64,000 nt of DNA. Origin: Trypanosoma brucei. Its lineage: Eukaryota. The position numbers and the translations under genes were made by a program. Under the pieces are notes generated by a model. That model saw only the letters and a program-made list of their open reading frames with translations, ran no database searches and had not been told where the DNA came from. The stretch lies in NCBI GenBank assembly GCA_000002445.1, contig CM000207.1:352001-416000 (forward strand), written 5' to 3'. Shown here piece by piece: positions 8,346 through 60,002 of the stretch (position 1 is its first letter; every line of letters starts with the position of its first letter).

Positions 8346-9812
8346 TTAGTCCCAGACAACAGACTTCAAGCGGTTCATAAATCCCACTCGACCAAAAGTG
8401 GAACTACCTTTGCGCAGCGCAAGTCCCCTATTTTCCTCATCACTTACCGTTTCAACCTCTATCATATCCCAATGATCACTTAATGGTTCGACATAAACCC
8501 ACTCCTTTACTTCCCTTCGCTCAGTTTCCGTTTGCTTGTGCATATGACGTTGCACAATTTCTACAATAAGGGGAGCCTTCGCTTGTATAAAAGGATGCTC
8601 ACGTATCACCGCAACAGTGGCACGTTCAAATGAGTTTGTTTTCACTAATGACTCCACAAGCGACTTGGCATCATCCGATACATTGGCCCAATGCGGACCG
8701 ACGCAGCGGATGCCTTTCAGCATATTTTGGTAAAGAGAACTAAAGCATCGCGTAGCCACAGGCATATGACCACACAACAAAACATATGCTACAACACCTA
8801 AGCTGTACATATCCGCAAGATGCATCGTCTCTCCCAACGCCTCATACACACGGCGACGTTCCACGACAGCGCGTATATTCTCTGGAGAAGTGTAACCTGC
8901 GGTTCCACAAGGTACAAAAAGTTGTGTTTCGCACTGTTTCACATACTCCGCAAGGCCAAAGTCGATGATCATCACCCTTTTGAAGTCGTGCGAAAGAACG
9001 ATGTTTTCAAGCTTTATATCACGATGCACTATTCCTTTCTTGTGGTAAAGGTAGTCAAGACCTTCTGCCACCTGCAGGACAACATTTGCCACAAGAACTT
9101 CTACGTCGTATTTATATTCCTTAGCTAACCTCCATGCTTGCATGAGCGAACCGCCATCACCTGCTTCCATAACAATAACAAGGTGATGTGGTGTCTGCAA
9201 TACCTCCAATAGTTTTGCAACATTATGATGATCCACATCTTGCATTATTTCCAACTCTGTTACAATTTTCTTCCACGAACGATAGGTCACAACCGATGCT
9301 TTAGTTATTACTTTAAGTGCCACACGCCTTCTACAGGGATAACTCCGGTCTTCGCATTTATACACAGAGCCAAACCCACCTTTACCAATCATAGCTCCCT
9401 CAAAGAATGTTGGGAAGCGGTCTGTTATACTTTCATAATAAACATAATCTCCAACATTGAATTCAGAGAGGGATGTGTAACATGAATGCATGAGTGCGTT
9501 AATGCTGCGGCTGTCGAGAAATGACATAATGAGACGCGCCACGCTTCCATCACGCTTCCCCGTACGTAAGTTACGCAAACTTCTAAACACAGCGGGAAAC
9601 TTGCAGGAGTTGCACCGCCGTAAGCGTCGCCCACCATATGTAGCAGTGCATGGGGCACAATTGTCACAAAATATCCGTCCACACCACTGGCAGTGTTGTT
9701 TACTGACGAGTAGTGAAAACTTCTTGCGGCACAGGCGGTTCTCACAGGCATCTGTTGAGCACCAGTCGCGTCGCTGCTCACCGGGAATTACTAATTCATG
9801 CTCCCCGCGCAT
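8346..9812 (-). CDS. protein kinase (CAMK-like Ser/Thr kinase) with an N-terminal FYVE-like zinc finger
   Basis: Kinase subdomains GKGGFGSVYKC, VALKVI, HRDIKLENIVL, DFGLAEY and GTAGYTSPE are present. The N-terminal block WCSTDACENRLC...KQHCQWCGRIFCDNC...RRCNSC has FYVE-like spacing. The ORF track begins at a TTG codon (9834-9836); the first in-frame ATG is at 9810-9812 (MRGEHELVIPG...). Confidence 0.8.
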   Translation of the reverse strand: MRGEHELVIPGEQRRDWCSTDACENRLCRKKFSLLVSKQHCQWCGRIFCDNCAPCTATYGGRRLRRCNSCKFPAVFRSLRNLRTGKRDGSVARLIMSFLDSRSINALMHSCYTSLSEFNVGDYVYYESITDRFPTFFEGAMIGKGGFGSVYKCEDRSYPCRRRVALKVITKASVVTYRSWKKIVTELEIMQDVDHHNVAKLLEVLQTPHHLVIVMEAGDGGSLMQAWRLAKEYKYDVEVLVANVVLQVAEGLDYLYHKKGIVHRDIKLENIVLSHDFKRVMIIDFGLAEYVKQCETQLFVPCGTAGYTSPENIRAVVERRRVYEALGETMHLADMYSLGVVAYVLLCGHMPVATRCFSSLYQNMLKGIRCVGPHWANVSDDAKSLVESLVKTNSFERATVAVIREHPFIQAKAPLIVEIVQRHMHKQTETERREVKEWVYVEPLSDHWDMIEVETVSDEENRGLALRKGSSTFGRVGFMNRLKSVVWD

Positions 9813-9832
9813 GACTGCACAACTTAACACAC

Positions 9833-9836
<4 letters not shown>

Positions 9837-22659: not shown

Positions 22660-24612
22660 CTATCTCACGTCATATGACGACCCTTTATGATGAGAGGGCG
22701 GTGCCGTACCATTCATCATCACACCTGATTTCAAAGTTTTTGGGCGGTTGGAAGCCGCGGCATGCAGGGCGCCGCTACAATTATTGTCGGCATCATCCTC
22801 ATCATCAAAACATAACCTCAAAGCGCAGCTAGCCACTTCATACTCCTCATGATCACTCGGACTGCTGCCCCGGCCGTTAATGCGATGATAGCCGCTAATA
22901 TCACGGCGATATCTTGCGGAGGTAGGCGGCGCAAATGCGAAAGAAGAGTGTGTTGAGGTTCCTAATTGCGCATGATGTTGCCCGGTGGTAGTCCCACTGC
23001 CGTCGCTTGCACTGTTGTGTAACCGAATACCACTGTAACTCACACCATAACTTGATGTCCCAACGTCATCACGACTACACTTCGATGTGGCTGCCGCGGC
23101 TACGACGGGAGTGTGACTGATCGGAGAAGCACTGTGGAGCCACTCACTGTGAGTCTGAGATACGATACTGGGGGTACTTACGTTGCTCAAACTTTGCATG
23201 CATTCTGTTGATCGCAGAGGGCTTATAGTTATGAGGCTTGCGCTCGTACCAGAATAATCATCCACGGGACAACGGACTCTTTCTGTGGTGGCGCGAACTC
23301 GAACAATATCAGAAGCCGAGGGGCAACTCAACGTTGTACTTTTATCCATATCTTTATGGTTGTGGCTGTGGTTGGCGACGCAGTTGGTGCCAGTATGATG
23401 AACCGGCTCCGGAACATTCAACGTGGGTGCTCGGCTGCAGCACCACGACTCTTTTTTCTGCTGAATCCATCGGGTGCCATTTTTGGTTGTGTCAAAACTA
23501 CCTTGGTGTTGTAACACCGGCTCCTCAGCACGTGCTCGGTGCTTACTCTCGATGTAACGGTTGCTTATGCGACAATTACAGTCCCCTCTCATGAACGGGT
23601 GGTTCAACGCCTCCTGGCACGAAAACCGCAAGGCCTCATCCACGCGCAAAAGTCCTTGGAGGAAATGTCGTGCCGTTGGTGACAACTGTGAAGGGTAACG
23701 AATGGCACCGGAGGCAATGCATGAACACACGTCTCGTGCATCTAACATCTCGAAGGGCAGGAAACCGCAAAGCATACGATATGCTACTACACCAACAGCC
23801 CACAAATCAGCTTTGGTAGTGCAACCACGCTTCAGCACTTGTTCAGGTGCTAGATAGTCCAGCGTGCCACAAACCGTATGGCGTCTGCAATACCGAGGGT
23901 CGCTGTTGTTTACGCGCACGGCCCAAGAGAAATCGGCGAGAAGCAGCTTTTCTCCATGAAAAAGGATGTTATCTGGTTTTACATCACGGTGAATAATGTC
24001 CCTCTCGTGCAAAAAAGCCAATGCCGACAGAAGCTGTAGGAGAATGGTACGCACCTTATCATCAGGAAGAGAGGATCTCTGCTCCTTTTCTCTGTAGCAA
24101 TCAAGCAAATCCTGTAGGGTTCCACTATCTGCATATTCTAGCACTAGAACGATCCGCACATCATCCCAAAAGTACGCAAAAAGACGCAGAACATTCTTGT
24201 GGTAGCGCCCAGCGTATTCCTGTAATTCCACTTCACGTTGTAGTTGGTGGGCAAGGCTGTGAAAGCGAATCATATCCTTTGAAATGCATTTGAGGACCAC
24301 AGCGCATTTGCTCTGCTTCTCCCTAGCAAGGTAAACTTTCCCAAAACGGCCTTCGTCAAGTTTTCGTATTATAACAAAATCGTCCAAAGACCACATGGAA
24401 CGGTCCGCTGCGTGGTTCTGATGTTTACCGGGGGAAGGGGTTCGGTTAAATTGAAAACTTGCATCAGATGTCGAAGAAACATTCGCTACGACTGGGGATG
24501 GCGTTTCATCCAACTTAAAAGCTCCCGTGTCGCACCATTTCCCATGGCTGGCAGGAGTTCCTCTCTGCGCGCCGTCGTCACGTAAAGACGGCTCGCACAG
24601 ACGTGTGCTCAT
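22660..24612 (-). CDS. Aurora-family Ser/Thr protein kinase with a long (about 300 aa) Ser-rich low-complexity C-terminal extension
   Basis: The kinase domain is collinear with Aurora kinases: GRFGKVYLAREKQSKCAVVLKCISK, QLQREVELQ, HRDVKPDNILF, DFSWAV and GTLDYLAPE. ATG confirmed at 24610-24612. Residues from about 340 to 650 are S/T/G-rich with no motifs. Confidence 0.85.
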   Translation of the reverse strand: MSTRLCEPSLRDDGAQRGTPASHGKWCDTGAFKLDETPSPVVANVSSTSDASFQFNRTPSPGKHQNHAADRSMWSLDDFVIIRKLDEGRFGKVYLAREKQSKCAVVLKCISKDMIRFHSLAHQLQREVELQEYAGRYHKNVLRLFAYFWDDVRIVLVLEYADSGTLQDLLDCYREKEQRSSLPDDKVRTILLQLLSALAFLHERDIIHRDVKPDNILFHGEKLLLADFSWAVRVNNSDPRYCRRHTVCGTLDYLAPEQVLKRGCTTKADLWAVGVVAYRMLCGFLPFEMLDARDVCSCIASGAIRYPSQLSPTARHFLQGLLRVDEALRFSCQEALNHPFMRGDCNCRISNRYIESKHRARAEEPVLQHQGSFDTTKNGTRWIQQKKESWCCSRAPTLNVPEPVHHTGTNCVANHSHNHKDMDKSTTLSCPSASDIVRVRATTERVRCPVDDYSGTSASLITISPLRSTECMQSLSNVSTPSIVSQTHSEWLHSASPISHTPVVAAAATSKCSRDDVGTSSYGVSYSGIRLHNSASDGSGTTTGQHHAQLGTSTHSSFAFAPPTSARYRRDISGYHRINGRGSSPSDHEEYEVASCALRLCFDDEDDADNNCSGALHAAASNRPKTLKSGVMMNGTAPPSHHKGSSYDVR

Positions 24613-24689
24613 GTATGATCACTATAGCAGGCGAATATATATATATATTTGTGTATAAATATGTGATATATAAAACACCTGAAGGACAC

Positions 24690-25285: not shown

Positions 25286-26119
25286 TCACTTGGAAATACG
25301 CAGCCGGTTCTCCAGAGCGACAACTTTCGTTTCCAGTTCGTCATTGGCGCGCAGCAAATATAATAGAGCAGGTTCCGCTATCAATTTGTTCAGCGTGTAG
25401 AATTGAGCATCCTGCAAACCGCGTGCCGCCTCTACGGCATCAGCCATCCCACCACATCGCTGACGAACGAGTTCCACAGCCGCCTCCACTTCCGTTCGAA
25501 ACGTTTGCAAAAGCCGGTATGTTATATCAATCACAGGTGGTGATTTGAGCGGCATCTGGGAAATGGGAACAACCTCCAACTCCACCATCTCATGTGTTTC
25601 ACCAGGTCCCGTACGGAAGCAGTGAATAGATGTGGCATTCCGCTGCGTGCTGTCGCAGTAGAAAACACTGAATATGAGACCCACCCATCCACTCTCCAGC
25701 ATTTGGTATGACAGTTGCGAGCGAAGGTCCACGTGCGAGGGATATGGTGTAATACGTGGATGGCTGTGATACCAACCTATAACCCGTGTATGTGTCCCCA
25801 CTAACTCTGTGCAACGCTCTGCTTCCTCACTAGCGCCGGAAAGCACCTCAGGCGCAGTTTCCACACGGTCCGAGCGACGCACGCTGCGCTGCACTACCCA
25901 CGAATCCCACACGTTGGCTTCCTTGTATAAAATAGGGCTGGAACGGAAATCTTCACTTCCAACATCCGAATATGGATCGGAGTCCTTTGCAACACATATT
26001 TCCCCGAGCAGTAAACCCATCACCTCCTCCTGCTCCGTGGAGAATGCATGGGCGTAGCATGCCTGAACAACCGTGTCCGCCACACGGACCTTTTTCAATG
26101 GCGCATGCTTCGCCTCCAT
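25286..26119 (-). CDS. BRCC36: JAMM/MPN+ metalloprotease deubiquitinase, BRCC36 (BRCC3)-like
   Basis: JAMM motif E...HxH-x7-S-xx-D is present (EEVMGLLLGE; GWYHSHPRITPYPSHVDL). Extended collinear similarity to human BRCC36: HAFSTEQEEVMGL versus HALSTEKEEVMGL, and RRSDRVE...AERCTEL...RVIGWYHSHPRITPYPSHVDLRSQLSYQM...VGLIFS versus RRSDKRKDRVE...AERLAEL...RVVGWYHSHPHITVWPSHVDVRTQAMYQM...VGLIFS. ATG at 26117-26119. Confidence 0.85.
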   Translation of the reverse strand: MEAKHAPLKKVRVADTVVQACYAHAFSTEQEEVMGLLLGEICVAKDSDPYSDVGSEDFRSSPILYKEANVWDSWVVQRSVRRSDRVETAPEVLSGASEEAERCTELVGTHTRVIGWYHSHPRITPYPSHVDLRSQLSYQMLESGWVGLIFSVFYCDSTQRNATSIHCFRTGPGETHEMVELEVVPISQMPLKSPPVIDITYRLLQTFRTEVEAAVELVRQRCGGMADAVEAARGLQDAQFYTLNKLIAEPALLYLLRANDELETKVVALENRLRISK

Positions 26120-26223: not shown

Positions 26224-26266
26224 ATATATATATATATGTATGTGTGTGTGTATGTATGTATGTATA
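26224..26266. repeat. compound (TA)n(TG)n(TATG)n microsatellite
   Basis: atatatatatatgtatgtgtgtgtgtatgtatgtatgtatag, intergenic. Confidence 0.85.
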
Positions 26267-27048
26267 GAAGAAGAGACGCAGGGATACGGTCAAACAGTTA
26301 TCGATGAACTTATGCACACTGTGCCGAAGATGACACGAGCAAAATCAAACAACTCAGTACAGCAGATGGAAAACCAACGAAATGGCACCGACACACAAGC
26401 GCATGTACATGTAAACACACGCGGAAATTTATACGAAATATATATATATATATGACAATGGGGAAGCCGACTTTTACTCCCTTTTCCTTTGTTTCCTCAT
26501 GTGAAATGATCGAGATGATATCAGCGGTTACGGGGAGTTTGGAGGACAAATAAATAAGTAAGAACAGCAAACTAAAATCACCGACGCGGACAACTACCAA
26601 CACAAAAATATACAGCCCGGTTACACATATGCGTATGCGGAGGCATAGGTACTTGTATAACATGGATGTATGCATATGCACCTGAATGCAAAAAAATGTA
26701 GATATATAGATAAGGATATAGATATAGATATATAAGACTGGAGCAATTAACAACCTAACACACACGCTGCATAGTCACTTCATAAACATTCCACTACGCT
26801 GCAACCACTGGTTCTTGGCACCTCCCATCCTCCTACTCTATATAATTATTCCATCTCCCTTTTTGTACCTTCCTCGTTTTTTATTCCCCTGTATAGTCGA
26901 CATTGTTGCCGTCTATGTCCTCTAAAAAACACCCAAAAACAAGTAACGAAACACCAAATGAAATTTAAAAAAAAACGCACAAGCTGGCGCACATAACCTC
27001 TATGTACAAACTCGTTGGAAAAGAGCTCCACACGTCTCAACTGCATTC

Positions 27049-28854
27049 TTACAATTGGGTTTGTCCAATTGATTGGCATTTACTGAAACCTTGATTCTCT
27101 ATAACTGTGCGGAACAAAGACACTACAGTGTGCTGCGGTAGTTCACCAACAAGCTCCCATACCTGTGGCTCCTCTTGAAGCAGAGTGAAAAAATTTCCCC
27201 CCACATATTTGATGGCACGCTCGTGTAACTCCGGGACCTGATGTTTTGTTGAGTACATGAGCATTCGGAGAGCGTTCTGATAATTAAATGCCTCGTCGGC
27301 CTCTTTTTTTAACTGTCCATCCATACCAAATACGGCATGCATCTTCAGAACAATGGCAACATCCTCCGCCGAAAAGTCGTGTTGAGAATCGATGTGGTGA
27401 GAGTAAATAGCCGCGAGCAGCTTGTGCCATGCGCGTTGAGAAAAGTCAAACTCCTCCGAAGTGAATGACAGCTGAGATGACGGCAATTTGGAGCCCATTG
27501 CCTGTGAGAAAAGAATGCAACGTGAGGCAAGAACAAACCGATGAGCCTTCAGCACAAACTTCTGGGGACCAACAGTTAAATTTATGTCACTGTATTCACC
27601 AGACTCTGCCAACCACGTCAACTGCTTGCTAAGAGTATTCTTTACGGCGGGAATGCAAATTGGCGGCACCGTCTCCTGGCTGCGAAGTATCAGTGACAGT
27701 CGACGGAAGAGGTGACCGGGTATTTCCTCAAACTTCGGGTCTTGAATGAGTGTGTCGTAGTTTTCAAGCAGTGCCGACAAATAGAGTGCATTAAGCACCT
27801 CATCAGCCGCGTTAAATCGCGTCAACGCAATGTTAAGGATATTTTCGGACGTCAGAAGCGGCTCCACGAACCTCACACACAGGCTGCAAAGATCATAGAA
27901 TTCGCAGGCAGCTGCCAGAAGATACAAATCTAAAAGCGCCTCCGCCGACATAACGCCTTGCTCCGGGAGTTCTTCCGTGTATATGTAACGAAGGAAGGCG
28001 GAAAAAACAGCCGACGATACGGAAATGGCAACACTACATCCGGGTTGTAATGGTAGTATTGCAGCTGGAAGGATGGGGCGCATACGGGCAGCCACGATGC
28101 AGCGATGTGCCTTAAAACAACCGCCTTCCACTTCAAATGTCATATCCGCAAGCCCCTCCAGATGCTCGAAAGGGTATAAAAGGGGCGCCCGCAATGGTAT
28201 AGTCAAAGGACTTGGGATGAAGCTATTCCCAGGGGCTTGTGTGAAACGTTGGTTGTTTGAAGGAGAGCGGTGCACACTGCCGTTCACTCGGTCCCCGGCG
28301 TGACCTCTACGAGCGGAAGAATCTGCATCTCGATGTCGATCCACATTTGCAGGACATGGGTTAGAGGAAATGCTGAGGGAGCGCCTCCGCTGCGACTCAT
28401 TTGTATCACAAACCATTAGCAAAACCTCTATATCTATGAAGTAAGCATTGGATGCTTCATCTCGGTAAAGAAACTCACTCTGCGCACCAGTCAGTTGTCG
28501 GAGTGGCACGAAATGATTCACTCCCCACGCGCTACCGGTTTTCTGAAAGGTGCACCTAAATGTGGAACTCTTTGACAACCGTGTGTCCATATAGCACACC
28601 AAAGTTAATTTGAATTGAGCCACTACATGCTGTTGCGTGCAGAGTTGGAGATGTACAGAAAGGTAGGGCTCGTTAGATGGTGGAGCGCAACGCTGCTGAA
28701 GATGCAGCCGCCACAGATGATCCCCAATCCCGAATTTTGGACTGCAGTGAACAGTATCCGTCCTAGCAATTGTTTGTAGGATCTGTACAGGGCAGCTGTA
28801 GCGAAACCGGACGCTGTTGTTCGCAAGTACCTCCACCGTCTCAAGTAGTTCCAT
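27049..28854 (-). CDS. MATH-like plus two BTB/POZ domains (SPOP-like architecture; likely cullin-3 substrate adaptor)
   Basis: The N-terminal approx. 130 aa resemble a MATH/TRAF fold (NSVRFRYSCPV...SPKFGIGDHLWRLHLQQ). BTB motifs follow at DMTFEVEGGCFKAHRCIVAARMRPIL and DINLTVGPQKFVLKAHRFVLASRCILFSQAMGS. ATG at 28852-28854. Confidence 0.7.
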   Translation of the reverse strand: MELLETVEVLANNSVRFRYSCPVQILQTIARTDTVHCSPKFGIGDHLWRLHLQQRCAPPSNEPYLSVHLQLCTQQHVVAQFKLTLVCYMDTRLSKSSTFRCTFQKTGSAWGVNHFVPLRQLTGAQSEFLYRDEASNAYFIDIEVLLMVCDTNESQRRRSLSISSNPCPANVDRHRDADSSARRGHAGDRVNGSVHRSPSNNQRFTQAPGNSFIPSPLTIPLRAPLLYPFEHLEGLADMTFEVEGGCFKAHRCIVAARMRPILPAAILPLQPGCSVAISVSSAVFSAFLRYIYTEELPEQGVMSAEALLDLYLLAAACEFYDLCSLCVRFVEPLLTSENILNIALTRFNAADEVLNALYLSALLENYDTLIQDPKFEEIPGHLFRRLSLILRSQETVPPICIPAVKNTLSKQLTWLAESGEYSDINLTVGPQKFVLKAHRFVLASRCILFSQAMGSKLPSSQLSFTSEEFDFSQRAWHKLLAAIYSHHIDSQHDFSAEDVAIVLKMHAVFGMDGQLKKEADEAFNYQNALRMLMYSTKHQVPELHERAIKYVGGNFFTLLQEEPQVWELVGELPQHTVVSLFRTVIENQGFSKCQSIGQTQL

Positions 28855-32830: not shown

Positions 32831-35026
32831 TTACGCATCCTCTCGAAGGCTAATAACTAAGGCATTCTCCGGTGCGGCATTGCTCGCGCGCCATTGTACA
32901 TCAGCGGAGCAACGTGGGCACCGCGGAATCAGCTTTGAGGGGCGCACATCACCAATCACACTCGTCTTATACCTACAGTGCTCACACTGAATGAAGCGAC
33001 GTACTGTCTCCCGTGTCTCAACAATGTGTCCTAGCGATTTGCACCGTTCGTTGCGACGTAAATACCAGCGGTCACATTGCCGACAGTAATGTGCCTTTAA
33101 CTTCTGCTCTGTAACATCAGCCAGCGCCTCCAGTGCTTTGTCCTGCTGAAGTAGCCGCTCGGCCTGCCGTTCAAGTCGCTGACGCTCGTCTAAAGCACGC
33201 AGTTCGTCATTGACACTATGAAGTGACTCTGCAACTTTTCCCAGCAGAGACGCGGGGGGAGGTGCAGAACCACCAGTCTTGTTGGCGGTAGTTTCTCGCA
33301 GCCTCACTTCCTCTTGCCCTACAGAGGATCGTCCGGCAAATTTAGCCAATGAACCTTCAGCACGCAGTTGCCGCTCAACAACGTTAACAATAGCACTGCG
33401 TGTACCCTTTCCCCCCTGCGTGGTAACACCACTATTGTAGCTATTTCTCCCTGTCAAAATTGCGTCACCACGGCGACCTCCCCGCAGGGGAGCGAAGGCT
33501 GAACGGTCGTGAGGGGCGCTAAGTGGGGCAAACTTTTCGCGGACCTCCACCCACGGTGGTTGTTCACAGCCTTCACGTGGTCGTTTGGTCCCCCGCTGAC
33601 TCGGATGAAGGGCAAGGCGAAGAAGGCGATCGAAATTCTTTGCTTCCTCCGCAGCGGCGGCAGCCCCAAGCACAGCACGACCTTGGGTTCCTACGCCAAT
33701 CTGCGTAGGGATATAGCTAGAGGTCATACCTTTACCATCGCCGTTGCTTAGCAGACGCTTCGCGTTCTGGGCCACGTCGTTAACAGGAAGTACGTCGCCT
33801 GCGACAACACCCGCGTAGGCGTTTCCCGCAGCCATAACATCTGCTGATGCAGGAGTTGATGCGGGTAAGCCAGTGGATCCCCTCACCGTGAGAAAGCCGA
33901 GTTTTTGGCGCCGCAAAGCTTGTGACGACGTTTTGGAGGCGGTTATTTGGGCAGACTGGAGAGTCGCCAGATTTATGCACGTTAACGCCGGCGCACTCAA
34001 TCGAGCTGTCCCCAAGGGCTGTGACCGGAATTTGCCACTAACACCGGGGGCAGCACCGCGTGCCTCACGCTGAAGGTTGGCCATATGATGTGCACAATAA
34101 TTCGATAACGACTTATTGACGATATTTTTACAGAGCTCTCCAGACCGTTGCTGAGTACCCTGACATGTAGCAAGGTCTGATGCGAAGCCCAGTACACGTA
34201 CCTGGTCGCATGTGGTAACCTTTAAAATTCCGCAGTCGCCACTCGCGGTAGAGCCCCCACTTGTGGTGGCGTTGAAAGTTGTCTTTCCTACACTTTGATT
34301 TTCCATCCGCTGCATTCCTGACACCGCCAACACCAAACCGCTCAGAATCCTCGTGTAATGTGTATCAAATGCAGACCCGCCAAGAAGAATGGCCACCTCG
34401 CCAGCAGGGCTCACAAATGGTCCTTTCATATCCCACAAGTAGACAACACCGTATCCACGCCCGGTAGACGCTCGCTTTGGCTCCGTCTTATGGACCACCA
34501 CACCAACAACAGTACTGGGGGGCAATGAGTTTCCTCCAGCTGACTTAACAGATCGTCGAAGTCCTTCAAACGTGGTAAAGGGATGCTGCGCCAAAATGAC
34601 GGCCAATTGCTCGCAACTTCGCGTTGGTCGACTAACTTTAATATTGCTGTTGGGCTCCCGTACGATTCCTAACTGCGGCTTCCTAATTGGGGCATCATCC
34701 ACACCTCCTTTTGCAGTGGGAGTTGCCGTGACAACACTCATGAACGAAGCGGAGGGGTTGGTACTGCCTTCTGCCCCACTAAAAGTTTTATTTGCTGGAA
34801 AGACACTTGTGCCGAGGTCGTGCAGTGCAAGCCGAGATACAACGGGGTCTTCCATAGCAGCAGTCACTTGACTGAGACGACTAGCCTGTGAGTTTGGCGC
34901 CACGCCGATTGTGGAATCAACCGACCCACTCACATTTCCACTGGGGTCATGGAATACCGCAAAAAGATCCTCATCGCTTCGATCGTCACTGTCACTTGGA
35001 CTTCTCTTCCCCTCACTTCGTGCCAT
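32831..35026 (-). CDS. MCM10: MCM10 (DNA replication initiation factor) homolog with OB-fold/CCCH zinc-finger core and a C-terminal Cys-rich zinc ribbon
   Basis: Collinear with the human MCM10 internal domain: VVGVVVHKTEPKRASTGRGYGVVYLWDMKG versus GVVIKVLSKSEPKQTKNGRDYSIWTLSDL. The zinc finger C295-x10-C306-x11-C318-x2-H321 (DLATCQGTQQRSGELCKNIVNKSLSNYCAHH) matches the MCM10 CX9-10CX11CX2H signature. The C-terminus has CRQC...CEHC...CPRC. The ORF-track start at 35045-35047 is TTG; the first ATG is at 35024-35026 (MARSEGKRSPS...). Confidence 0.75.
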   Translation of the reverse strand: MARSEGKRSPSDSDDRSDEDLFAVFHDPSGNVSGSVDSTIGVAPNSQASRLSQVTAAMEDPVVSRLALHDLGTSVFPANKTFSGAEGSTNPSASFMSVVTATPTAKGGVDDAPIRKPQLGIVREPNSNIKVSRPTRSCEQLAVILAQHPFTTFEGLRRSVKSAGGNSLPPSTVVGVVVHKTEPKRASTGRGYGVVYLWDMKGPFVSPAGEVAILLGGSAFDTHYTRILSGLVLAVSGMQRMENQSVGKTTFNATTSGGSTASGDCGILKVTTCDQVRVLGFASDLATCQGTQQRSGELCKNIVNKSLSNYCAHHMANLQREARGAAPGVSGKFRSQPLGTARLSAPALTCINLATLQSAQITASKTSSQALRRQKLGFLTVRGSTGLPASTPASADVMAAGNAYAGVVAGDVLPVNDVAQNAKRLLSNGDGKGMTSSYIPTQIGVGTQGRAVLGAAAAAEEAKNFDRLLRLALHPSQRGTKRPREGCEQPPWVEVREKFAPLSAPHDRSAFAPLRGGRRGDAILTGRNSYNSGVTTQGGKGTRSAIVNVVERQLRAEGSLAKFAGRSSVGQEEVRLRETTANKTGGSAPPPASLLGKVAESLHSVNDELRALDERQRLERQAERLLQQDKALEALADVTEQKLKAHYCRQCDRWYLRRNERCKSLGHIVETRETVRRFIQCEHCRYKTSVIGDVRPSKLIPRCPRCSADVQWRASNAAPENALVISLREDA

Positions 35027-36393
35027 TCCAAAGGGGATCGGGCCCAACTATCTTACCTTTAGCTTTGCTATCCTGGGTTCCTAACGATTCACTTCCTTCC
35101 CGACGAACTCGCCAACGTGAATGCGGCTTTTAAAACAACAAATTCTGGCACACGTGGAGCCCACTGAATAACAAAAAAAAACGCTGTGTTTGCGCACCGC
35201 ATGGACAAGGGAAAGGAAAGGGGATAAAAGCGTATGGAAATGTAAATGATTTGAATAAGCAGCAGCATGCAAGGAAACATGTTGAAAGGACTGTGCAGTG
35301 GACCGCAGGGTGGGGAAATGTGTGGTGCGGGCACCAAAACAAAATATTGATATCGGACGAGCAAACATCCTCACTCTGAAGTTGGTACATCTAAAAACTC
35401 GCCTCACATACACAAGAAAACATAAAAAAGGGGGGAAATTATAAACGGAGAAATAATAAGGGGAATAAAATACAGTCTTCTATTTCATTCCCGGAACATC
35501 TAGTTCTCACTTACAAACTCCCACACACCTCTCGCACGCAGTTTTTCACTCAGCCACGCACAAAATCATATAATTACATACATTCACGGACCAGTCTTTC
35601 CTCATACCAAAGACAAAGTGAGGACGGGCACAAGTGCATACAGGTTGCACTAATTTCCCCTCTATTTCCTTCTCACTGCATGTCAAAACTTCCCCACCAC
35701 AAATGTGACAGGCAGAAATATGGACTTGTAATCGGGAGTGCGTGTGCGCACAGATACACACACGCATGAACTCGTGCCTCCAAATCCCCCCCCCTCTTTT
35801 TTTCTCCAGCGAAGTACTCATATTTGACGAAACAAAAAAAGGGATAATTACCCGCCCCCGCAGAAAGGGAGGGGGAAAACATTATATACATACATGACAA
35901 AAGGCACACAAACTAGTGGAGCTGGAGGTAGTTTGCTTGATCAAAGGTGGAACACAAGGATGAACAAATGAGCTCTAGCGAAAAATTCACATACAAGCAC
36001 AAAAAGAGTCCATGCGCGAGCTCAACACCTTGATGAACAAGAGGACACTAAATCATACATTAACAAGTAGAAAAGAGAATGCGCTCGTACAGAGTCAAAG
36101 AAAAATTAAAACTGTGATGGTCCATAATATTTCTCAAGCTGCTCGTCTACCATCTTCCCATACCCTCAGTTTCTTCTTCACAGAGCTTGCCACTGTCTAA
36201 AGATGTTTGAAATTGCATTACATTCATGTGACAACAAAGCGGAGGGGAGAAACGAGAACGAACGAACATGAGCAACGAAAAAAAAAAAGCACGAGGTGGA
36301 AAAACATGTAGCACCGCTCACACCATCAATTTTACAGATCACAAGTTTACTTCAGCTGCTACACGGTACGAGAACGCCCAAATCAATCCATGA

Positions 36394-39300
36394 TCATCTC
36401 CTGCTCAAACCAACTCTAGCCGTTTTTTGTGCCCTCCCTGCAGCAGCTCTTCCTGACAAGGGCGCATTTATTGGCAATGAGGGCACTTTTACTCCACCAG
36501 GGGCGGGACTGCTGCCAGAGGACGAAGCTGCATGACGCATAGCGTCCCTCATATCGCCTTTCCCTCGTTTGCCTTTGGACGGCGGTTGTGGGATCATTAC
36601 GTGGTGAGCGCTAGAAATCTCAGGTAGCGTAATAACCTTTGCCGTTGGTGAGTGTTCGCCGGCGGCGAACTCCTGCGAGGGATCCACAATTTGGGGGAGT
36701 GTGATAGCAACATCCTTCTCACTTCTCGTGGTGGCATTGACGATGGGATTGTTGTAGCTGATACCGTCTTTGCATTCGGTAACCACCTGGATGGTGTAGC
36801 TCGTTGACGGTTCAAGCCCTTCAAGTGTAAACGTCGAGTCAGAGACTGTGCTTGCAAGAATGGGTGTGCAGTTACGCACCCCAATGTAAACACGATAGTT
36901 AATAACCCGATTGCCAGACCGGTTGCTACTGGTCTCTGATCGCGATGGTGTCCACATCAGCGTGACGCTGTTGTCCGTGGTCCCCACCACCGTGAGATCG
37001 GTAACTGGCTCTGGCGCAGTACCACTTGTCACTCCAACGGGTTCACAATACTCGCTGAAAGGACTACCCTCATCAACAAGCGAACACTTCACCCGACAAC
37101 GCACCTTCGCGGCGGGTCCCGTAAATCGCACACGGCAGTTAGTTTCTTCAACAATATCGATAACGCGCCATTCCACCGATCCCTTTGGTTTCCCACGGGA
37201 GTCCGTTGGAGAATGTGACTGCTCAACAACATACCTGTACGCATGATAACAGTCTGGAGCCTCCCACTGTAGCAAACCTGTTTGAGCGTTCTGCCGCCGT
37301 AGAGTTACAGATTGAGGTGGGAATGGTGCCGTTGTCAAGTTGACCTCAACCCAAGCCCCCCAAGAGTTATGCTCATCCATCGCTCGGACTTTGACAGTGT
37401 AGGAGGTGCAGCCGGTGAGGCCATCAATCGTGATGTTCTTCATTGGACCCTCCTCTCCTTCCACATCAAACTCAAGCTGTCGGAAATAAGGCTTTGCCTG
37501 TGAGGCACACAGAACAATGCGGCGCCAATCTGGTAGAAAGTCGTCCCCGCCTTCCTCCGTGGGACCGGCCCCGACGGTACAAGCAGCGCCAACGTCAACG
37601 GCATTTGCACCATCTACTTCCCCTTCCACTGCCGCCGCAGCGCCACTGGCCGCAGGCAACTGCGTATCAGCGGGCTCAACCTCAAGAGGGGCTGCAGCAC
37701 GTGGCAGCGCTTCCGCAGCCTCCCCAGCTGAAACAGTATAAACTGTAGCAGCAGCGTCATTGTTCACGGCAGTAGCGTTAACCTCATCCCCATCGTCATC
37801 CTTATCTTTAGAAGGAATTTCGTCTGTCTTGCGTACTTCAACCTGATATTTCTTTACAATTTGAACAACTGCCTTCCGCTCCATGCTTCCCTCCTCACCA
37901 ACCTCTCCATCCACAATCCTGGCACCCCCGAGCAGTGGATCCCCATGCGCCGGTGGCGATGCTATTCCAGTAGGACTGCCACTGCTTTGTGCGTCAGGAG
38001 GTGAAACAAGCCTAGGGAGCAGGCTTCGTTCCGAAACGGGTGACGGAGACTGCTTTGCTGCCGCTCCTTTGCCCGACTTGCCCCGCTTTGACCCTCCACT
38101 CCCCTTGCTCCCCTTGGGACTTCGAGTACCTTTCCTGCCCCTCGAACCGGTCCTACCCTTTCCGGTGGAGGTTCTACCAGCTGCAGAGCCAGTCGCGTCC
38201 GGTGAAGCTTCGGGGGGTGGGGGTGGCTCCATTCGGTTGAGGGTGAACTCTGCGGAGTCGCATGTAACACCGTTGAGGGCAACACAAATGGGACACAGTG
38301 TCTTGAAACCAACCGTGGGGGTCCATTGGCCCCAACTTAATTCATCATACCGAGGTTGAAGTGCCATAAGATAATCCAAACCAGGAGAAAGGCCCTCCAG
38401 TAAATAGGTCGGAAGTAGAAACTCATCATCCGTCACGCCACAGTCACTTGGATTAATTACATGTTCCACAGTTTCATTACCACCCTTTAAGACAAGCTGG
38501 TATTCGCAGGGATCCAGCCGAGGTTGGGAGTTGCATTTTTCTTCGGAGCGATCACCTTCGCCACGGTCCCACTTCATACGCACATAGATTTCTCCTACAT
38601 TCACCACATCTAATCGCAACACACGCTGCGTGCGGAATAACCCTTCCTTGCTCCACAGACCCCAGCGCGAGTCCGTATTACATGAGCGTACAACGACAAC
38701 GTAGGCCGCATCAGCCTCCAGGGAGCAGATACGGTAGCGGTTCACATCCTTCGGGAACTGCTTATCAACGATAGCGAGGGCTGGAGAGTGTTGCGAAGCG
38801 AACACACACAAATGGTATGCAATTACCTCTGGTGTCCCAAGAACAACGGGAACTGCAGCAACGGCATTGTTTGTAGTACTAGGAAGGCTCTCTGGTTCGT
38901 CAGCAGAAGCCGGGGTCTCGCCGCAACACCCCACAATATCCGCGTATTCTTGCACAGTTTGTTCGTCACGGAACCACTCCACCGTGGCAAACTGTTCACC
39001 AGGGGAGGAGACAATAAGCTGCATCGGCTTTAGAGTCGCAAAGAACGTTCGATCACTCCAGGGGCTCCACGACTCCCGTCGAGAATCCAAGGAACGCACG
39101 GACACCGAGTAGACAGTGGCGGCTTCAAGCAACTTAGCCCGGTAGCTGTTTCGCGCGCCCTTGAACTGCTTGCTAATGTGGTAACTGTGCTCAAGACCGA
39201 TAACGTCCACCTGAAACGTTGAAAGGAAATCATCATTGCCGCAGAGCGCCTCCGATCCGTCTGGAAGTAGCAGAGATCGACGGGGTCTTTGCCAGGAAAA

Positions 39301-42300
39301 CTCGGCGTAATTTTCACCAATAGAACTCATTTCGACGGCAAACTTTGGTAAGGTCATAACATGGACGATTCGGCTCCACCGCCCCCATACATTGTCCACG
39401 CAGCAGCGCACATGAATTCGATATAGCGAATCGTGACGCAGATTGCGTGCAACATAAGTGGTTTCGCTTCCTGAGAGTGGTTTGTCAATTAGCAAAGACC
39501 CTTCATTTGCAGCAGCATTGGGGCCCACCTCATAAACACGAAGCTGGTAGCTATCCACGGGCTTGGGGGGAAACGGATTTCGCACTGGTAGTGGTTGGGC
39601 CCGCGGGTCACGCTCCCAATGGACAGCAAAGAAGTCCTCAGCGCCGTCATCCATGAAACACACCATGTCACGCAGAGTTACGTCATATAGACCATCACTC
39701 CACGCACCTGGCTCCGCTCTACTTTGGTTGAGAGCCTCCACTATGCCTTCATCCTCAGCCTGTGGGAGTTCGGGATGTATGGTATCAACAACAAACTCTT
39801 CGTGCGGCTTATACCAACGTCGCACACTCACACGGTATCGGTGATGAGATAGCAACTCCTTTACTGTGCTGTTACGAACATTTGATGGAATTATCATCGT
39901 GCGGCGTAACCGGGGGGGAAGCTCCTCTGCATCCTCCTCGCCATATGACACATCAGTGAAGTCGTGAACAGCTAGCTCATAGCAAATCAACTCTTCTACA
40001 TCCGAAGGTTGCAGGTCGCTCGTGGCAAATGAGTTCGGAAGTCGTTGCCACGACGCCGTTAGGTAGTCTTCACCAAGGCCAATCAACTCCACACTCAACA
40101 GATTGAGTGTTCCACAGGTAACGTGGGTGCTACTGAGGCCAAACTCACCGCTTCCGTAGCACGCACGGACGGCCAAAGAGTACCGTTTGTCTGGTTTTAG
40201 CGACGACACTGTGAATGTCGTCTTCTCACCTGGCACGTTGAATGTGACACCCTCATCCTCACCTTCTTGCACGAAAGTGATGGCATAGTATGCAACACGA
40301 GTCTTTGCGCTGTTGTACATCGCGGACCTTACTTCTGGTTGGTCCAGAAGGGGGTATCTCTTTTGGCACAATCCGGGTTTCAGTTTGTCAGGTGACATGG
40401 CCCTAAAGGAGGAGCGACGCCCATCTTCTCTTTCCAGAGTTGTTTGAGACTCCGCAGCGAAACCAGAACTTTCGGAGAAATCTCCGGTCTGGCCCCCAAC
40501 ACTTCTGCTGCTTTCCCCCACGGTGATGGGTGTGTTATCGTCGCTGTCACGCCCACTGCTTCCCCCGTTGGACGTTTCCTCACCTTCGTCACTTAGCGTA
40601 CCGTTAGTATCTGTGGATGTGCGCACCATTACTTGCAGTTCATCGGGTTCCTTGCGCCTCCAATGAAGGCGCACATAGTCCTCACCAATAGCCAATACTT
40701 CCGCGCTTATAAGCTTCATGGTGTACACGCAACGTTCCTCCGACCAGAAGCCCCATTCACCAAGGTTGTTCGACGCGCATATTTTAAAAGTATACGGCCT
40801 GTTCGGGGTGAGAGAATCGAGGCGGTACTCCTGAAGATCACCAGCAAACCGCTTTTCGCACAACAACTTGCGGCTGGCTTCATCACAGCGATAGATGCGT
40901 AGAAGGTAGCCGGAGCAATCGCGACACCCGACGCAGATCGTTGGATCAAACCTCCCCTCATATTCGGTACCCTCATCACCTTTTGGTTGTTGCTCCTCAC
41001 GACCCCACTCCAACATGACAGAGTGCTCTGTGATTTGTGTGGGGTAAACCTCTAGGCGCTTAAGTGTCACAAAACGAAGCGGTTCCGACCACATACTTGA
41101 TGCTTCACATTCGTCAATGGAAAGCACCCTGACGGTATAAACTGTGTCCAGGTTCAGGCTTTTCAAACGGTAGTAGGTGTTGGTGGCTCCCGTTAGTACA
41201 ACATTTAACTGCAAGCCATCACGCCCAAGTACATCAATCATGTATGCTGATGCAACGTAACTCCCGGTGAACACTTCAGCCATATCCATTCTCGGATGCT
41301 GCCTGGGGGGAACGCGTTTCCATTCAATTTCGGCGTACTGTTCGTCGATGTGCTTCACATTGACCCGGATCTTCGACATCGTGAGGAAGTGTTGTTCAGC
41401 GCTCCACGCGCCCAACTGGCCTCCCGTGGTCACGCTCATAACTTGGACACTGTAGAAACGATCTTGCTTCAGATTTTCCACTCGGAAAGAGAATGTGTCT
41501 TTGTTGAACCGTCTAGTTAGGTGCAGCCGACCACTCCCATCACTTTCGTACTCAACCGGATGCTCCTGCGGGGGCAGAGGGCCCTGTGTCTGCTGCGTAG
41601 TGGTTAAAACTCCCACAATTTCATCTGCTAGCGTCTTTGGCGCTAGTTCTTCTTCGCTTACCGCGGGTTCCTCACAGCTCTCCCCATCAACGCCATTATC
41701 TTGTAACTCCAACACCCGCACGTAAAACATTTCATTATCCACGCCATGTTGCAGAACATTCATATCATTGTCGTAGTCTACTCTTCGATCTCGTCGCCTC
41801 CAGGTTATCTGGGCCCAATCTTCACCGAGTTTCTCCACAGTTGCAGACATACCAGGCATTGTAACGCATGTTTTTGGAGCACACCAAAGCCCCCAAGCTT
41901 CCTCAGCACCCCACTCACGCACTTCAAACGTGTACTTTGTGTCCACCTGCAGCTTGTCAACACGGAAGACACAGCACGAGCGCATGGTGCGGTACTCCTC
42001 GCAGATCTTCCCCTCATCATCTTCATTCTCACTCTCCCATGTAATACGCAGTTGACAAACACATCCTTCATGAGAAGACGCATCACTTCTCAGTGTGTTA
42101 GCTTCATCTATAGGTGGCAGACGCTTATTTGGAGCTCGGTGCCACTCGATGTCCACAAAGGTTTCAGATATGCACGTGATGGACAACTGGATGAGGCTCT
42201 GCGTCATGAACTTCAACGGCGGCGTCCATGGACCCCAACCTACACCGTAATCGCAACACAGAAGTGCCGTGTACATAGTATTCCATACCAGTTGCTTCAC

Positions 42301-49833: not shown

Positions 49834-51011
49834 CTTACTTTTGTAATATACCAACCTGATCTTCCCTCACCTTCCCCCTTTCCTCTTCCTTATTTACAAA
49901 TAGTGATCCGTACTGTTTCCCTTCCTCTCTCCCTGATTAGTCACTATTCCTCCCCCTCAATTCCTTCCGTTCTTGAGCGGATGTCCCTTTTTCTCTAGAT
50001 GAATGTGCCGGAACAAACTTTTTGCCGGGCAGTCTCTTGTCGTGTTGCGTGCCCCCTTTCAGTTACCATGCAACGTAAGACAACAGTAGCAGGTGGGAAG
50101 TACAAATGGACAACAGAAACGAGACGGGACAACAACGAATATCCCCTCTCTACGACTCCGTCGTACACTCCGTCTTCCTTTTTTGGTTTGTTTCTCACCC
50201 TGCTGCAATAACGGAAGTAGCCACCAAAAAAAAATCGGAGCCCAAGAAATTAAAGAAAGGCAAAGATGCAAATGTGACGAAAGCGGTAGGAAATCGAAAC
50301 AGCAACTTGGGTTAGGATGAACAGAGCGAAAAGGAAAGGTGGCACATAGGTATTCACAGCCGTGGGCCTCAATTTATGAGAAGGAGGTGAAAGAACATGT
50401 TAAACAGAAAAAAGTGTAAGCACTTCAGCACGAAAAAGTGGAAACCTAAGGTGTGGTAGACAACAAAAAAACGCTAAAACAAAAAAGAATTAGGTCCACG
50501 CACACTTGCGCTTGTGTAAAACAGTCTCCGAGATAACAACTCCTAAAAAGGAACAAAAGAACGGGGCATGGAAAACAAAAAACAAGTGAAAACGGTCCTC
50601 AGTATACGTAACGGTGAGGAAGGACGTGATGTACCCGCTCCGACGGCCACGCATCCCGCACTGACAGGAGAGAGGTGGGAGTGGGGAAGAGTGCGAATCA
50701 ATCGTGACACACATCACGGAAGGGGCACCACATATGCCACAGCAACAGAAAACATATTTTGCGCCCTGAGAGACACATATCGCCTTGCGGTGGGCCCCCA
50801 GGCACCCTCAGGTGTAGACACACACGACGGAGTTTGTGAGTTTACTATAAACAAAGAAAATAAAAAAGAGAATCGGCAACCAACATTTCGCTTCCTTCCT
50901 CCGATCTAGGGTCCCCGTCAAAACCTCTAGTGGGAAAAGAAAAGTGAGGCAACGATCACGACAATGCTACAGAAGAAAGACATAAAATGGAAATGAGGCG
51001 GCGTCCCAGTC

Positions 51012-59945: not shown

Positions 59946-59965
59946 TTCAGAAAGCAAACAATGCA

Positions 59966-60002
59966 CTGAAGGAACAATAACCCCCCCCAAAAAAAAAACA
60001 AG
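59966..60002 (-). promoter_or_regulatory. polypyrimidine tract plus AG dinucleotide: candidate spliced-leader trans-splice acceptor for the HECT ligase gene
   Basis: Minus strand reads cttgtttttttttttggggggggttattgttccttcAG, followed 20 nt later by the first ATG (59943-59945). This is the standard kinetoplastid pre-mRNA processing signal. Confidence 0.5.

What the first reader, a model, noticed from the sequence alone, without database searches (positions are those of the whole stretch)
25286..26119. BRCC36-type (not RPN11/CSN5-type) JAMM deubiquitinase in a kinetoplastid
The match extends well beyond the JAMM catalytic motif and tracks human BRCC36 specifically (EEVMGL.IGE; RRSD...AER..EL...GWYHSHP.IT..PSHVD.R.Q..YQM...VGLIFS). 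In animals BRCC36 is active only when paired with an MPN- partner (Abraxas/ABRO1) in the BRCA1-A or BRISC complexes and cleaves K63 chains. Trypanosomes lack BRCA1, so the partner, and the pathway that a BRISC-like K63 deubiquitinase serves here, are open questions.
Basis: partly seen in the sequence, partly recalled or inferred. Interest (0 to 1): 0.5.

Follow-up and report, generated by a model that had tools for sequence, protein, structure and literature searches.

The report
Trypanosome BRCC36-type deubiquitinase, already annotated
The gene really does encode a trypanosome version of BRCC36, an enzyme that trims lysine-63 ubiquitin chains, but public databases and a 2014 paper already label it as such, and what remains unknown is which partner protein switches it on.

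Summary
Window 25286-26119 (minus strand) is an intact 277-aa ORF, identical to T. brucei brucei TREU927 XP_803455.1. It matches solved BRCC36 chains at E=1e-37, against 1e-6 or worse for RPN11, CSN5 and AMSH. It groups with plant and animal BRCC36 in 178 of 200 bootstraps. A confident AlphaFold model (pLDDT 90.7) aligns full-length only to BRCC36 structures, including the two C-terminal coiled-coil helices. All catalytic residues are present (E32, H118, H120, S128, D131), as are the BRCC36-specific activation residues R78 and E210.

The assignment is not new. The identical T. equiperdum protein is already named "Lys-63-specific deubiquitinase BRCC36", as are the T. cruzi and Novymonas orthologues (Angomonas and Strigomonas: "BRCA1/BRCA2-containing complex subunit 3"). 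Arcas et al. 2014 list a T. brucei BRCC3 orthologue with BRCA1, BARD1, BRE, MERIT40 and Abraxas scored absent. I found no functional study.

A conserved hydrophobic heptad stripe on the distal C-terminal helix suggests a coiled-coil partner is retained. I could not identify that partner: nothing in the window resembles it, and no kinetoplastid proteome or AFDB search was available. SHMT, the animal BRISC targeting factor, is absent from T. brucei. This is an ordinary, correctly read gene with a modest open question.

The parts
25286..26119 (-). Complete coding sequence of the 277-aa BRCC36-type JAMM/MPN+ protein, stop codon included
   Evidence: ORF list. Identical to T. b. brucei XP_803455.1 and T. 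equiperdum SCU67492.1. BRCC36 chains are the best PDB sequence matches at E=3.5e-37.
25568..26098 (-). MPN+ catalytic domain, residues 8-184
   Evidence: Pfam JAB covers residues 8-142. The AF2 model shows strands and helices from E8-14 to E180-184. Foldseek aligns this core to BRCC36, RPN11 and CSN5.
26024..26035 (-). E-loop, residues 29-32: supporting Glu E29 and catalytic Glu E32
   Evidence: These align with human E30/E33 and ant E27/E30. Both are at least 90% conserved across 58 sequences.
25931..25990 (-). Variable surface loop, residues 44-63, between strands beta2 and beta3
   Evidence: Lowest-confidence region of the model (block pLDDT 66). Column identity is only 0.26 within kinetoplastids, and the loop is much longer in T. 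cruzi and Leishmania.
25799..25888 (-). Ins-1 region, residues 78-107, beginning with invariant R78 (RSVRRSDRVE) and including helix alpha2
   Evidence: R78, R85, V86 and E87 are invariant. R78 corresponds to ant BRCC36 Arg53, which contacts helix alpha4 in the active state.
25727..25768 (-). JAMM motif H118-S-H120-P-R-I123-T-P-Y-P-S128-H-V-D131: zinc ligands, transition-state Ser and the proximal-ubiquitin-contacting Ile
   Evidence: H118, H120, P127, S128 and D131 are invariant, and I123 is at least 90% conserved. They correspond to ant H94, H96, I99, S104 and D107.
25457..25525 (-). Helix alpha4, residues 199-221, with invariant E210 (equivalent to ant Glu183)
   Evidence: AF2 helix 199-221. 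E210 is invariant in 58 sequences. Ant Glu183 contacts Ins-1 Arg53, and the Glu183Ala+Asp186Ala double mutant loses activity.
25292..25444 (-). Helix alpha5, residues 226-276: a long coiled-coil helix with a conserved a/d heptad stripe at 255, 259, 262, 266, 269 and 273
   Evidence: AF2 helix 226-276 with pLDDT 90-97. The stripe is 89-97% hydrophobic in 36 kinetoplastid rows. Foldseek alignments to BRCC36 chains span about 270 columns and include these helices.

Best explanation
The gene encodes the kinetoplastid orthologue of BRCC36 (BRCC3), a zinc-dependent JAMM/MPN+ isopeptidase. Shown here: it belongs to the BRCC36 family by sequence, phylogeny and full-length fold; it keeps every catalytic residue; and it is conserved in position and sequence from free-living bodonids to Trypanosoma and Leishmania. 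Inferred: it cleaves K63-linked ubiquitin chains, because the residues that contact proximal and distal ubiquitin in ant BRCC36 are conserved or conservatively replaced. Also inferred: like animal BRCC36, it is activated when its C-terminal helices alpha4 and alpha5 form a helical bundle with a partner, which positions alpha4 (E210) against Ins-1 (R78) and supports the E-loop. The partner is most likely a highly diverged MPN- or coiled-coil scaffold that sequence searches do not recognise. The pathway must be independent of BRCA1-A and of SHMT2, because BRCA1/BARD1 and SHMT are absent from T. brucei. It would oppose K63 chains written by the UBC2-UEV1 (UBC13-type) E2 complex.
For: Family: PDB phmmer gives BRCC36 at E=3.5e-37 and the next family at 1.3e-6. 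After the kinetoplastid hits, essentially all named hits in the 5.8-billion-protein search are BRCC36 proteins. The NJ tree with verified outgroups supports the BRCC36 clade in 178/200 bootstraps. Fold: the AF2 model has pLDDT 90.7 and pTM 0.85, with an MPN core plus helices 199-221 and 226-276. The top 11 Foldseek PDB hits are all BRCC36 chains; the ten that resolve the C-terminal helices score E=1e-21 to 7e-16 with TMq 0.57-0.77 over about 270 columns, and the eleventh (5cw6, MPN domain only) scores 8e-14. Other families match only the core. Catalysis: E32, H118, H120, S128 and D131 are invariant or nearly so. Substrate and activation residues: I123 matches ant I99, L141 matches M117, R78 matches R53, E29 matches E27 and E210 matches E183. 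Partner: the alpha1 interface positions stay hydrophobic (Y22 and F26 for human L23 and L27), and the distal alpha5 heptad stripe is conserved while alpha4 is too short to cover it. Purifying selection and orthology: orthologues occur in Bodo and Neobodo, and gene order is shared with Leishmania. Substrate supply: L. mexicana UBC2-UEV1 makes K63 chains, and the T. brucei orthologues are 77% and 70% identical.
Against: No activity, linkage specificity or interaction has been measured for any kinetoplastid BRCC36; I found none in the literature searches. Pfam BRCC36_C (PF18110) does not hit the C-terminus even at E<=1, and it is not among the precomputed domains of the kinetoplastid orthologues. 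The equivalent of ant Asp186, half of the Glu183/Asp186 pair, is Ala213 and is not conserved in kinetoplastids. One alpha1 interface position is polar: Q19 replaces ant Met17 / human Leu20. No scaffold, BRE or MERIT40 homologue is recorded for T. brucei (Arcas 2014), and I found none. The single-chain AF2 model folds confidently without a partner, so a partner is not structurally proven.
Confidence: 0.78

Rival explanations
1. A self-sufficient BRCC36. The kinetoplastid enzyme works as a monomer or as a homodimer whose own alpha4/alpha5 helices form the helical bundle, with no MPN- pseudo-enzyme scaffold. The lineage would have lost Abraxas/KIAA0157, BRE and MERIT40 along with BRCA1.
For: Arcas 2014 score BRE, BABAM1 and FAM175A as absent in T. 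brucei, while Naegleria keeps BRCA1, BRCC3 and BRE, which is consistent with lineage-specific loss of the other subunits. Zebrafish BRCC36 alone forms a homodimer through the same alpha1 surface. The AF2 single-chain model is confident throughout. Kinetoplastids differ from animals at Ala213 and Q19.
Against: The zebrafish homodimer is inactive and its C-terminal helices are disordered. The residues that couple alpha4 to Ins-1 (R78, E210) and the supporting E29 are invariant, which fits retention of the partner-dependent activation mechanism. The FAM175A 'absence' in Arcas 2014 is uninformative, because that pipeline finds the family only in vertebrates even though insects have a KIAA0157 scaffold.
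Confidence: 0.17
2. A misassigned member of another MPN+ family (RPN11, CSN5 or AMSH/STAMBP), that is, a proteasome-lid, signalosome or endosomal deubiquitinase.
For: All of these families share the JAMM motif. The Pfam JAB model does not discriminate among them.
Against: There is a gap of about 30 orders of magnitude in E-value in favour of BRCC36. Identity to human RPN11, CSN5 and AMSH-LP is 19-20%, against 33-36% to BRCC36, and the tree separates them in 178/200 bootstraps. These families match only the MPN core structurally (TMq about 0.45-0.48).
Confidence: 0.01
3. A BRCC36-derived protein with a changed job: either a non-catalytic scaffold or an isopeptidase for a different ubiquitin-like modifier or linkage.
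For: No biochemistry exists for this lineage. The complex partners that define the function in animals appear to be missing. T. brucei also lacks SHMT, the BRISC targeting factor.
Against: Every catalytic residue and the tested ubiquitin-contact residues are conserved across about 40 kinetoplastid-type sequences. The JAMM core is the most conserved part of the protein, with column identity 0.81. That pattern is the opposite of what a pseudo-enzyme would show.
Confidence: 0.04

Closest known systems
BRCC36 / BRCC3 of animals (catalytic subunit of BRISC and BRCA1-A; PDB 6H3C, 6R8F, 6GVW, 5CW3)
   Same: The MPN+ domain has an identical JAMM catalytic set. Ins-1 carries the invariant Arg. The proximal-site Ile and the supporting Glu of the E-loop are present. 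Two C-terminal helices (alpha4, alpha5) include the invariant alpha4 Glu. The full-length fold matches at TMq 0.70-0.77 for 5cw3_A, 5cw4_A, 6gvw_B, 6h3c_B, 8py2_A and 6r8f_A. Identity is 33%.
   Different: No recognisable Abraxas/ABRO1/KIAA0157, BRE or MERIT40 is recorded in the genome, and BRCA1, BARD1 and SHMT are absent. The C-terminus is too diverged for Pfam BRCC36_C. Ala213 replaces the Asp186 equivalent, and alpha1 carries Q19 in place of Leu/Met.
Arabidopsis BRCC36A/B
   Same: A non-animal BRCC36 orthologue. Plant BRCC36 proteins are 34-36% identical to the trypanosome protein and fall in the same clade.
   Different: Plants keep BRCA1, BARD1, BRE/BRCC45 and MERIT40, and AtBRCC36A acts in the BRCA1 pathway of homologous recombination. 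Trypanosomes lack these. Plant proteins also carry a long insertion before alpha4 that is absent here.
AMSH / AMSH-LP / Sst2 (K63-specific, partner-independent JAMM deubiquitinases)
   Same: The same catalytic chemistry, and an Ins-1 element used to read K63 linkages. This is the model for the 'stand-alone' rival explanation.
   Different: Only 20% identity (E=2e-3 by sequence). AMSH has the Ins-2 zinc module and no C-terminal coiled-coil helices.
RPN11-RPN8 and CSN5-CSN6 (MPN+/MPN- pairs in the proteasome lid and the COP9 signalosome)
   Same: The principle of an MPN+ enzyme activated inside a complex with an MPN- partner. The MPN core is shared.
   Different: A different family by sequence and phylogeny. 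The heterodimer geometry also differs from that of BRCC36-KIAA0157.

Membership tests
BRCC36 (BRCC3) family | JAMM/MPN+ catalytic set: Glu, His-x-His, Ser and Asp | tested here: met
   E32, H118, H120, S128 and D131 are present. H118, H120, S128 and D131 are invariant, and E32 is at least 90% conserved in 58 sequences.
BRCC36 (BRCC3) family | Closer to BRCC36 than to any other MPN+ family, by sequence score and by phylogeny | tested here: met
   BRCC36 scores E=3.5e-37 and the next family 1.3e-6. The NJ split has 178/200 bootstraps, with outgroups verified 100% identical to PDB chains.
BRCC36 (BRCC3) family | Ins-1 with its invariant Arg, and the Ile of the beta4-alpha3 linker that contacts proximal ubiquitin | tested here: met
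   R78 corresponds to ant R53 and is invariant. I123 corresponds to ant I99 and is at least 90% conserved. L141 corresponds to ant M117 and is a conservative change.
BRCC36 (BRCC3) family | No AMSH-type Ins-2 zinc module | tested here: met
   The model goes from alpha3 (129-141) through four short strands to alpha4 with no inserted module. Full-length alignments to BRCC36 chains leave no extra domain. An H165/C166/H175 cluster exists but is not conserved in Bodo, Neobodo or animals. Zinc binding itself was not tested.
BRCC36 (BRCC3) family | Two C-terminal helices (alpha4, alpha5) that form the coiled-coil helical bundle | tested here: met
   AF2 helices 199-221 and 226-276 have pLDDT 90-97. 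Foldseek aligns about 270 columns to BRCC36 chains. The heptad stripe is conserved. Caveat: Pfam PF18110 (BRCC36_C) gives no hit at E<=1.
BRCC36 (BRCC3) family | The alpha4 acidic pair (ant Glu183/Asp186) that holds Ins-1 in the active conformation | tested here: inconclusive
   The Glu183 equivalent, E210, is invariant. The Asp186 equivalent is Ala213 and varies within kinetoplastids.
BRCC36 (BRCC3) family | K63-linkage-specific isopeptidase activity | not testable with these tools
   Inferred only from conserved contact residues. No biochemical data were found for kinetoplastids.
BRISC / BRCA1-A complex | An MPN- scaffold (Abraxas, ABRO1 or KIAA0157) paired with BRCC36 | not testable with these tools
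   No kinetoplastid proteome could be searched and AFDB was unavailable. The ABRO1-seeded search listed only vertebrates. Nothing in the window matches the scaffold family: HMM E>0.7 and hhalign probability below 1%. Arcas 2014 score FAM175A as 0 in T. brucei, but their pipeline finds it only in vertebrates.
BRISC / BRCA1-A complex | BRE/BRCC45 and MERIT40/BABAM1 subunits | not tested
   Literature only. Both are scored absent in T. brucei by Arcas 2014, while BRE is present in Naegleria.
BRISC / BRCA1-A complex | Targeting partners: BRCA1-BARD1 and RAP80 for BRCA1-A, or SHMT2 for BRISC | not tested
   Literature only. BRCA1 and BARD1 are scored absent in T. brucei. SHMT is absent in T. brucei (PMC4866688).
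RPN11 / CSN5 / AMSH families | Best sequence, phylogenetic and full-length structural match to that family | tested here: not met
   E-values are 1e-6 to 2e-3, identity is 19-20% and these families lie outside the clade, and only the MPN core matches structurally.

The most novel reading that the evidence does not exclude
Kinetoplastids run a stripped-down or rewired BRCC36 module. The enzyme would be activated either by a lineage-specific scaffold unrelated in sequence to Abraxas/KIAA0157 or by self-association of its own coiled-coil helices. It would act on K63 chains in a pathway that involves none of the canonical BRISC or BRCA1-A subunits or targeting factors (no BRCA1, BARD1, BRE, MERIT40 or SHMT). 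That would reveal either the minimal ancestral core of the complex or a new way of activating a JAMM deubiquitinase.
Probability: 0.3. Interest if true: 0.5.

Novelty: already known. Interest (0 to 1): 0.2.

Why it matters
If it were characterised, this would be the first dedicated K63-chain eraser of the JAMM class described in kinetoplastids. It would complement the K63 writer UBC2-UEV1, which is needed for Leishmania differentiation. The large Leishmania DUB knockout screen covered only cysteine-peptidase DUBs, so this enzyme has not been tested genetically. Evolutionarily, a BRCC36 kept for hundreds of millions of years without BRCA1, BRE, MERIT40 or SHMT would show which part of the BRISC/BRCA1-A machinery is the indispensable core. 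Practically, selective BRISC molecular-glue inhibitors now exist for the human complex (PMC7617869), so a parasite complex with a divergent scaffold could be a selective drug target. None of this overturns current understanding. The homology itself is already recorded.

Tried and rejected
1. RPN11, CSN5 or AMSH identity. Rejected by sequence scores, phylogeny and fold.

2. Partner search by structure. I intended to run Foldseek with the model against AFDB, which holds kinetoplastid proteomes, but the library was not available.

3. Partner search by sequence. I verified human ABRO1 residues 1-269 against the PDB and used it as the seed. The search gave 477 hits and listed only vertebrate ABRO1. 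That profile is too narrow to reach kinetoplastids. Both large-database tools also show only their top 120 or 150 hits, so weak kinetoplastid hits could never surface. I therefore did not spend the exhaustive representative search or the third homologue search.

4. Partner encoded next door. A local ABRO1/Abraxas HMM and hhalign against all 202 window ORFs, including the syntenic unannotated neighbours, found nothing. Pfam at E<=5 on the four unannotated ORFs found nothing relevant.

5. A second copy or pseudo-enzyme paralogue in the window. The BRCC36 HMM hits only the one ORF.

6. Functional literature. Searches for BRCC36, BRCC3, BRISC, Abraxas or JAMM together with Trypanosoma or Leishmania returned only annotation-level mentions.

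7. An explicit published statement that trypanosomatids lack BRCA1. I found none beyond the Arcas orthology table.

8. Surface analysis of the model.

Full report
**Observation.** Window 25286..26119 (minus strand) is an intact ATG-to-stop ORF of 277 aa. Every ORF of 200 aa or more across the 64 kb is on the minus strand apart from one that lies inside the 4486-aa gene, which fits a trypanosomatid polycistronic unit. The protein is identical to T. brucei brucei TREU927 XP_803455.1 / EAN76289.1 and to T. equiperdum SCU67492.1. It differs at two residues from the T. b. gambiense protein. The observation, its coordinates and the organism call are confirmed.

**Family assignment.**
- Pfam sees only the generic JAB/MPN domain (E=3.3e-14).
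- phmmer against all PDB chain sequences separates the MPN+ families sharply. BRCC36 from mouse, human, zebrafish and ant scores E=3.5e-37 to 4e-27 over residues 14-190. The best non-BRCC36 chain is an archaeal RPN11-like protein at 1.3e-6. Eukaryotic RPN11 scores 7e-5, CSN5 1.8e-4 and AMSH 2e-3.
- In the 5.8-billion-protein search, the hits after the kinetoplastid orthologues are, where named, essentially all animal and plant BRCC36 proteins.
- I recalled human RPN11, CSN5 and AMSH-LP sequences and verified each as 100% identical to PDB chains. A neighbour-joining tree on 253 columns puts the kinetoplastid clade as sister to plant plus animal BRCC36. The split from the three outgroups appears in 178/200 bootstraps, and kinetoplastid monophyly in 184/200. 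Identity is 33-36% to BRCC36 and 19-20% to the outgroups.

**Structure.**
- AlphaFold2 on a 58-sequence alignment gives a confident model (mean pLDDT 90.7, pTM 0.85). It shows an MPN core followed by two long helices, residues 199-221 and 226-276.
- The top 11 Foldseek hits against the PDB are all BRCC36 chains. Ten of them align about 270 columns at E=1.3e-21 to 7e-16 with TMq up to 0.77 and TMt up to 0.84. The eleventh, the zebrafish MPN-domain structure 5cw6, scores 8e-14 over 179 columns.
- RPN11 and CSN5 chains follow at E of about 1e-11 to 1e-9 and match only the core (TMq about 0.45-0.48).
- The C-terminal coiled-coil elements that define BRCC36 architecture are therefore present, even though Pfam BRCC36_C (PF18110) does not detect them by sequence.

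**Residue-level tests** against the ant BRCC36-KIAA0157 structure paper (PMC4579573).
- The catalytic set is complete: E32, H118, H120, S128 and D131 are invariant or nearly invariant in 58 sequences.
- The supporting Glu of the E-loop (ant E27) is E29.
- The invariant Ins-1 Arg (ant R53) is R78.
- The proximal-ubiquitin Ile (ant I99) is I123.
- The distal-site Met (ant M117) is L141, a conservative change.
- The invariant alpha4 Glu (ant E183) is E210, which is invariant in all 58 rows.
- The alpha1 heterodimer-interface residues corresponding to human L23 and L27 are Y22 and F26, and those columns are 100% hydrophobic.
- Two departures: the equivalent of ant Asp186 is Ala213, and ant Met17 / human Leu20 is Q19.

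**Evidence for a partner.**
- Within 36 kinetoplastid-type sequences, the JAMM core is the most conserved segment (column identity 0.81).
- The distal half of alpha5 carries a clean a/d heptad stripe at 255, 259, 262, 266, 269 and 273. These positions are 89-97% hydrophobic.
- Helix alpha4 has only 23 residues against 51 in alpha5, so it cannot cover that stripe. In the ant complex the corresponding leucines (L240, L244, L247) pack on the scaffold's alpha5.
- This is indirect evidence that a coiled-coil partner is retained. It does not say whether the partner is a heterologous scaffold or a second copy of the enzyme.

**Evolutionary context.**
- Orthologues occur across Trypanosoma, Leishmania, Leptomonas, Angomonas, Novymonas and the free-living Bodo saltans and Neobodo.
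- The gene order Tim17-family, unknown, MATH-BTB, JAMM, protein kinase, unknown is shared between the Trypanozoon and L. mexicana loci.
- The gene is therefore an ancient kinetoplastid gene that has been maintained.

**Prior knowledge.**
- The assignment is not new. The identical T. equiperdum protein is named "Lys-63-specific deubiquitinase BRCC36, putative".
- T. cruzi and Novymonas orthologues carry the BRCC36 name, and Angomonas and Strigomonas orthologues are named "BRCA1/BRCA2-containing complex subunit 3".
- Supplementary Table 3 of Arcas et al. 2014 (PMC3969565) lists a T. brucei orthologue of BRCC3 (GI 71743978). The same table scores BRCA1, BARD1, BRE, BABAM1 and FAM175A as absent in T. 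brucei. Naegleria has BRCA1, BRCC3 and BRE.
- I found no functional study of the kinetoplastid protein. The Leishmania DUB knockout screen covered only cysteine-peptidase DUBs.

**Pathway constraints.**
- K63 chains are made in this lineage. L. mexicana UBC2-UEV1 (UBE2N/UBE2V orthologues) forms K63 diubiquitin, and the T. brucei orthologues are 77% and 70% identical.
- SHMT, which targets animal BRISC, is absent from T. brucei (PMC4866688).
- BRCA1 and BARD1 are scored absent.
- Neither of the two known animal targeting routes can therefore apply.

**Partner search.**
- AFDB Foldseek was unavailable.
- A search seeded with verified human ABRO1 listed only vertebrate ABRO1.
- The large-database tools list only their best 120-150 hits, so a weak kinetoplastid hit could not be seen.
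- A local ABRO1/Abraxas HMM and hhalign scan of all 202 ORFs in the window found nothing: E above 0.7 and probability below 1%. The BRCC36 HMM hit only the target ORF (7e-112).
- The partner remains unidentified, and no claim of absence can be made.

**Verdict.** The gene is a true BRCC36 orthologue that is almost certainly catalytically active. It is probably K63-specific and probably partner-dependent, but both of those steps are inferred. The homology, and the absence of BRCA1-A partners, are already on public record, so novelty is low. The partner and pathway are a real but modest open question that needs proteome-wide structure searches or co-purification.

Noticed in passing
window 27049-28854 (-), 25286-26119 (-), 51012-60026 (-): Three ubiquitin-system genes lie within 35 kb: a MATH+BTB (SPOP-like cullin-3 adaptor) immediately upstream of the JAMM gene, the JAMM gene itself, and a 3004-aa HECT E3 ligase with SPRY and RanBP zinc-finger domains. 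The MATH-BTB, JAMM, kinase order is conserved in L. mexicana. This is probably coincidental in a polycistronic unit.
   Followed up: partly
window 36394-49854 (-): A 4486-aa ORF built almost entirely of fibronectin type III / Ig-like repeats (Pfam fn3 E=3.6e-113, with many related Fn3/Ig models hitting along its length). This is an unusually large FN3-repeat protein for a trypanosome.
   Followed up: no
window 32831-35047 (-): A 738-aa protein with a primase-type zinc finger and an Mcm10 CCCH zinc motif, so a likely Mcm10 orthologue.
   Followed up: no
window 8346-9836 (-) and 22660-24612 (-): Two protein kinases. One carries an N-terminal FYVE zinc finger. The other is a 650-aa kinase directly downstream of the JAMM gene and is syntenic in Leishmania.
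   Followed up: no
related proteins P0005 (T. cruzi) and PMC12618653: The T. cruzi BRCC36 cluster holds 37 member sequences. A 2025 genome paper reports the 'Lys-63-specific deubiquitinase BRCC36' gene family co-occurring with the TcMUC/MASP/TS-GV genome category. This suggests copy-number expansion in T. cruzi, in contrast to the single copy seen in this window.
   Followed up: no
window 25931-25990 (-), protein residues 44-63: The loop between beta2 and beta3 is hypervariable. It has about 20 residues in T. brucei, is about 28 residues longer in T. cruzi, and is about 40 residues longer and Ala/Ser/Gly-rich in Leishmania. It is the lowest-confidence part of the model.
   Followed up: partly
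window 25595-25627 (-), protein residues 165-175: An H165-C166...H175 cluster (IHCFRTGPGETHE) is conserved in Trypanosoma and Leishmania but not in Bodo, Neobodo, animals or plants. Whether it binds a second metal is unknown.
   Followed up: no
related protein P0002 (T. congolense): The T. congolense orthologue is annotated at 395 aa, against 253-335 aa in the other named kinetoplastid orthologues. This is probably an N-terminal over-extension in the gene model.
   Followed up: no
window 24634-24674, 26227-26265, 26438-26453, 26699-26734: Short (AT)n, (TATG)n and (ATATAG)n tandem repeats flank the gene in both intergenic regions. This is typical low-complexity trypanosome intergenic sequence, and it produces the spurious 'YIYIYI' ORFs in the ORF list.
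   Followed up: partly
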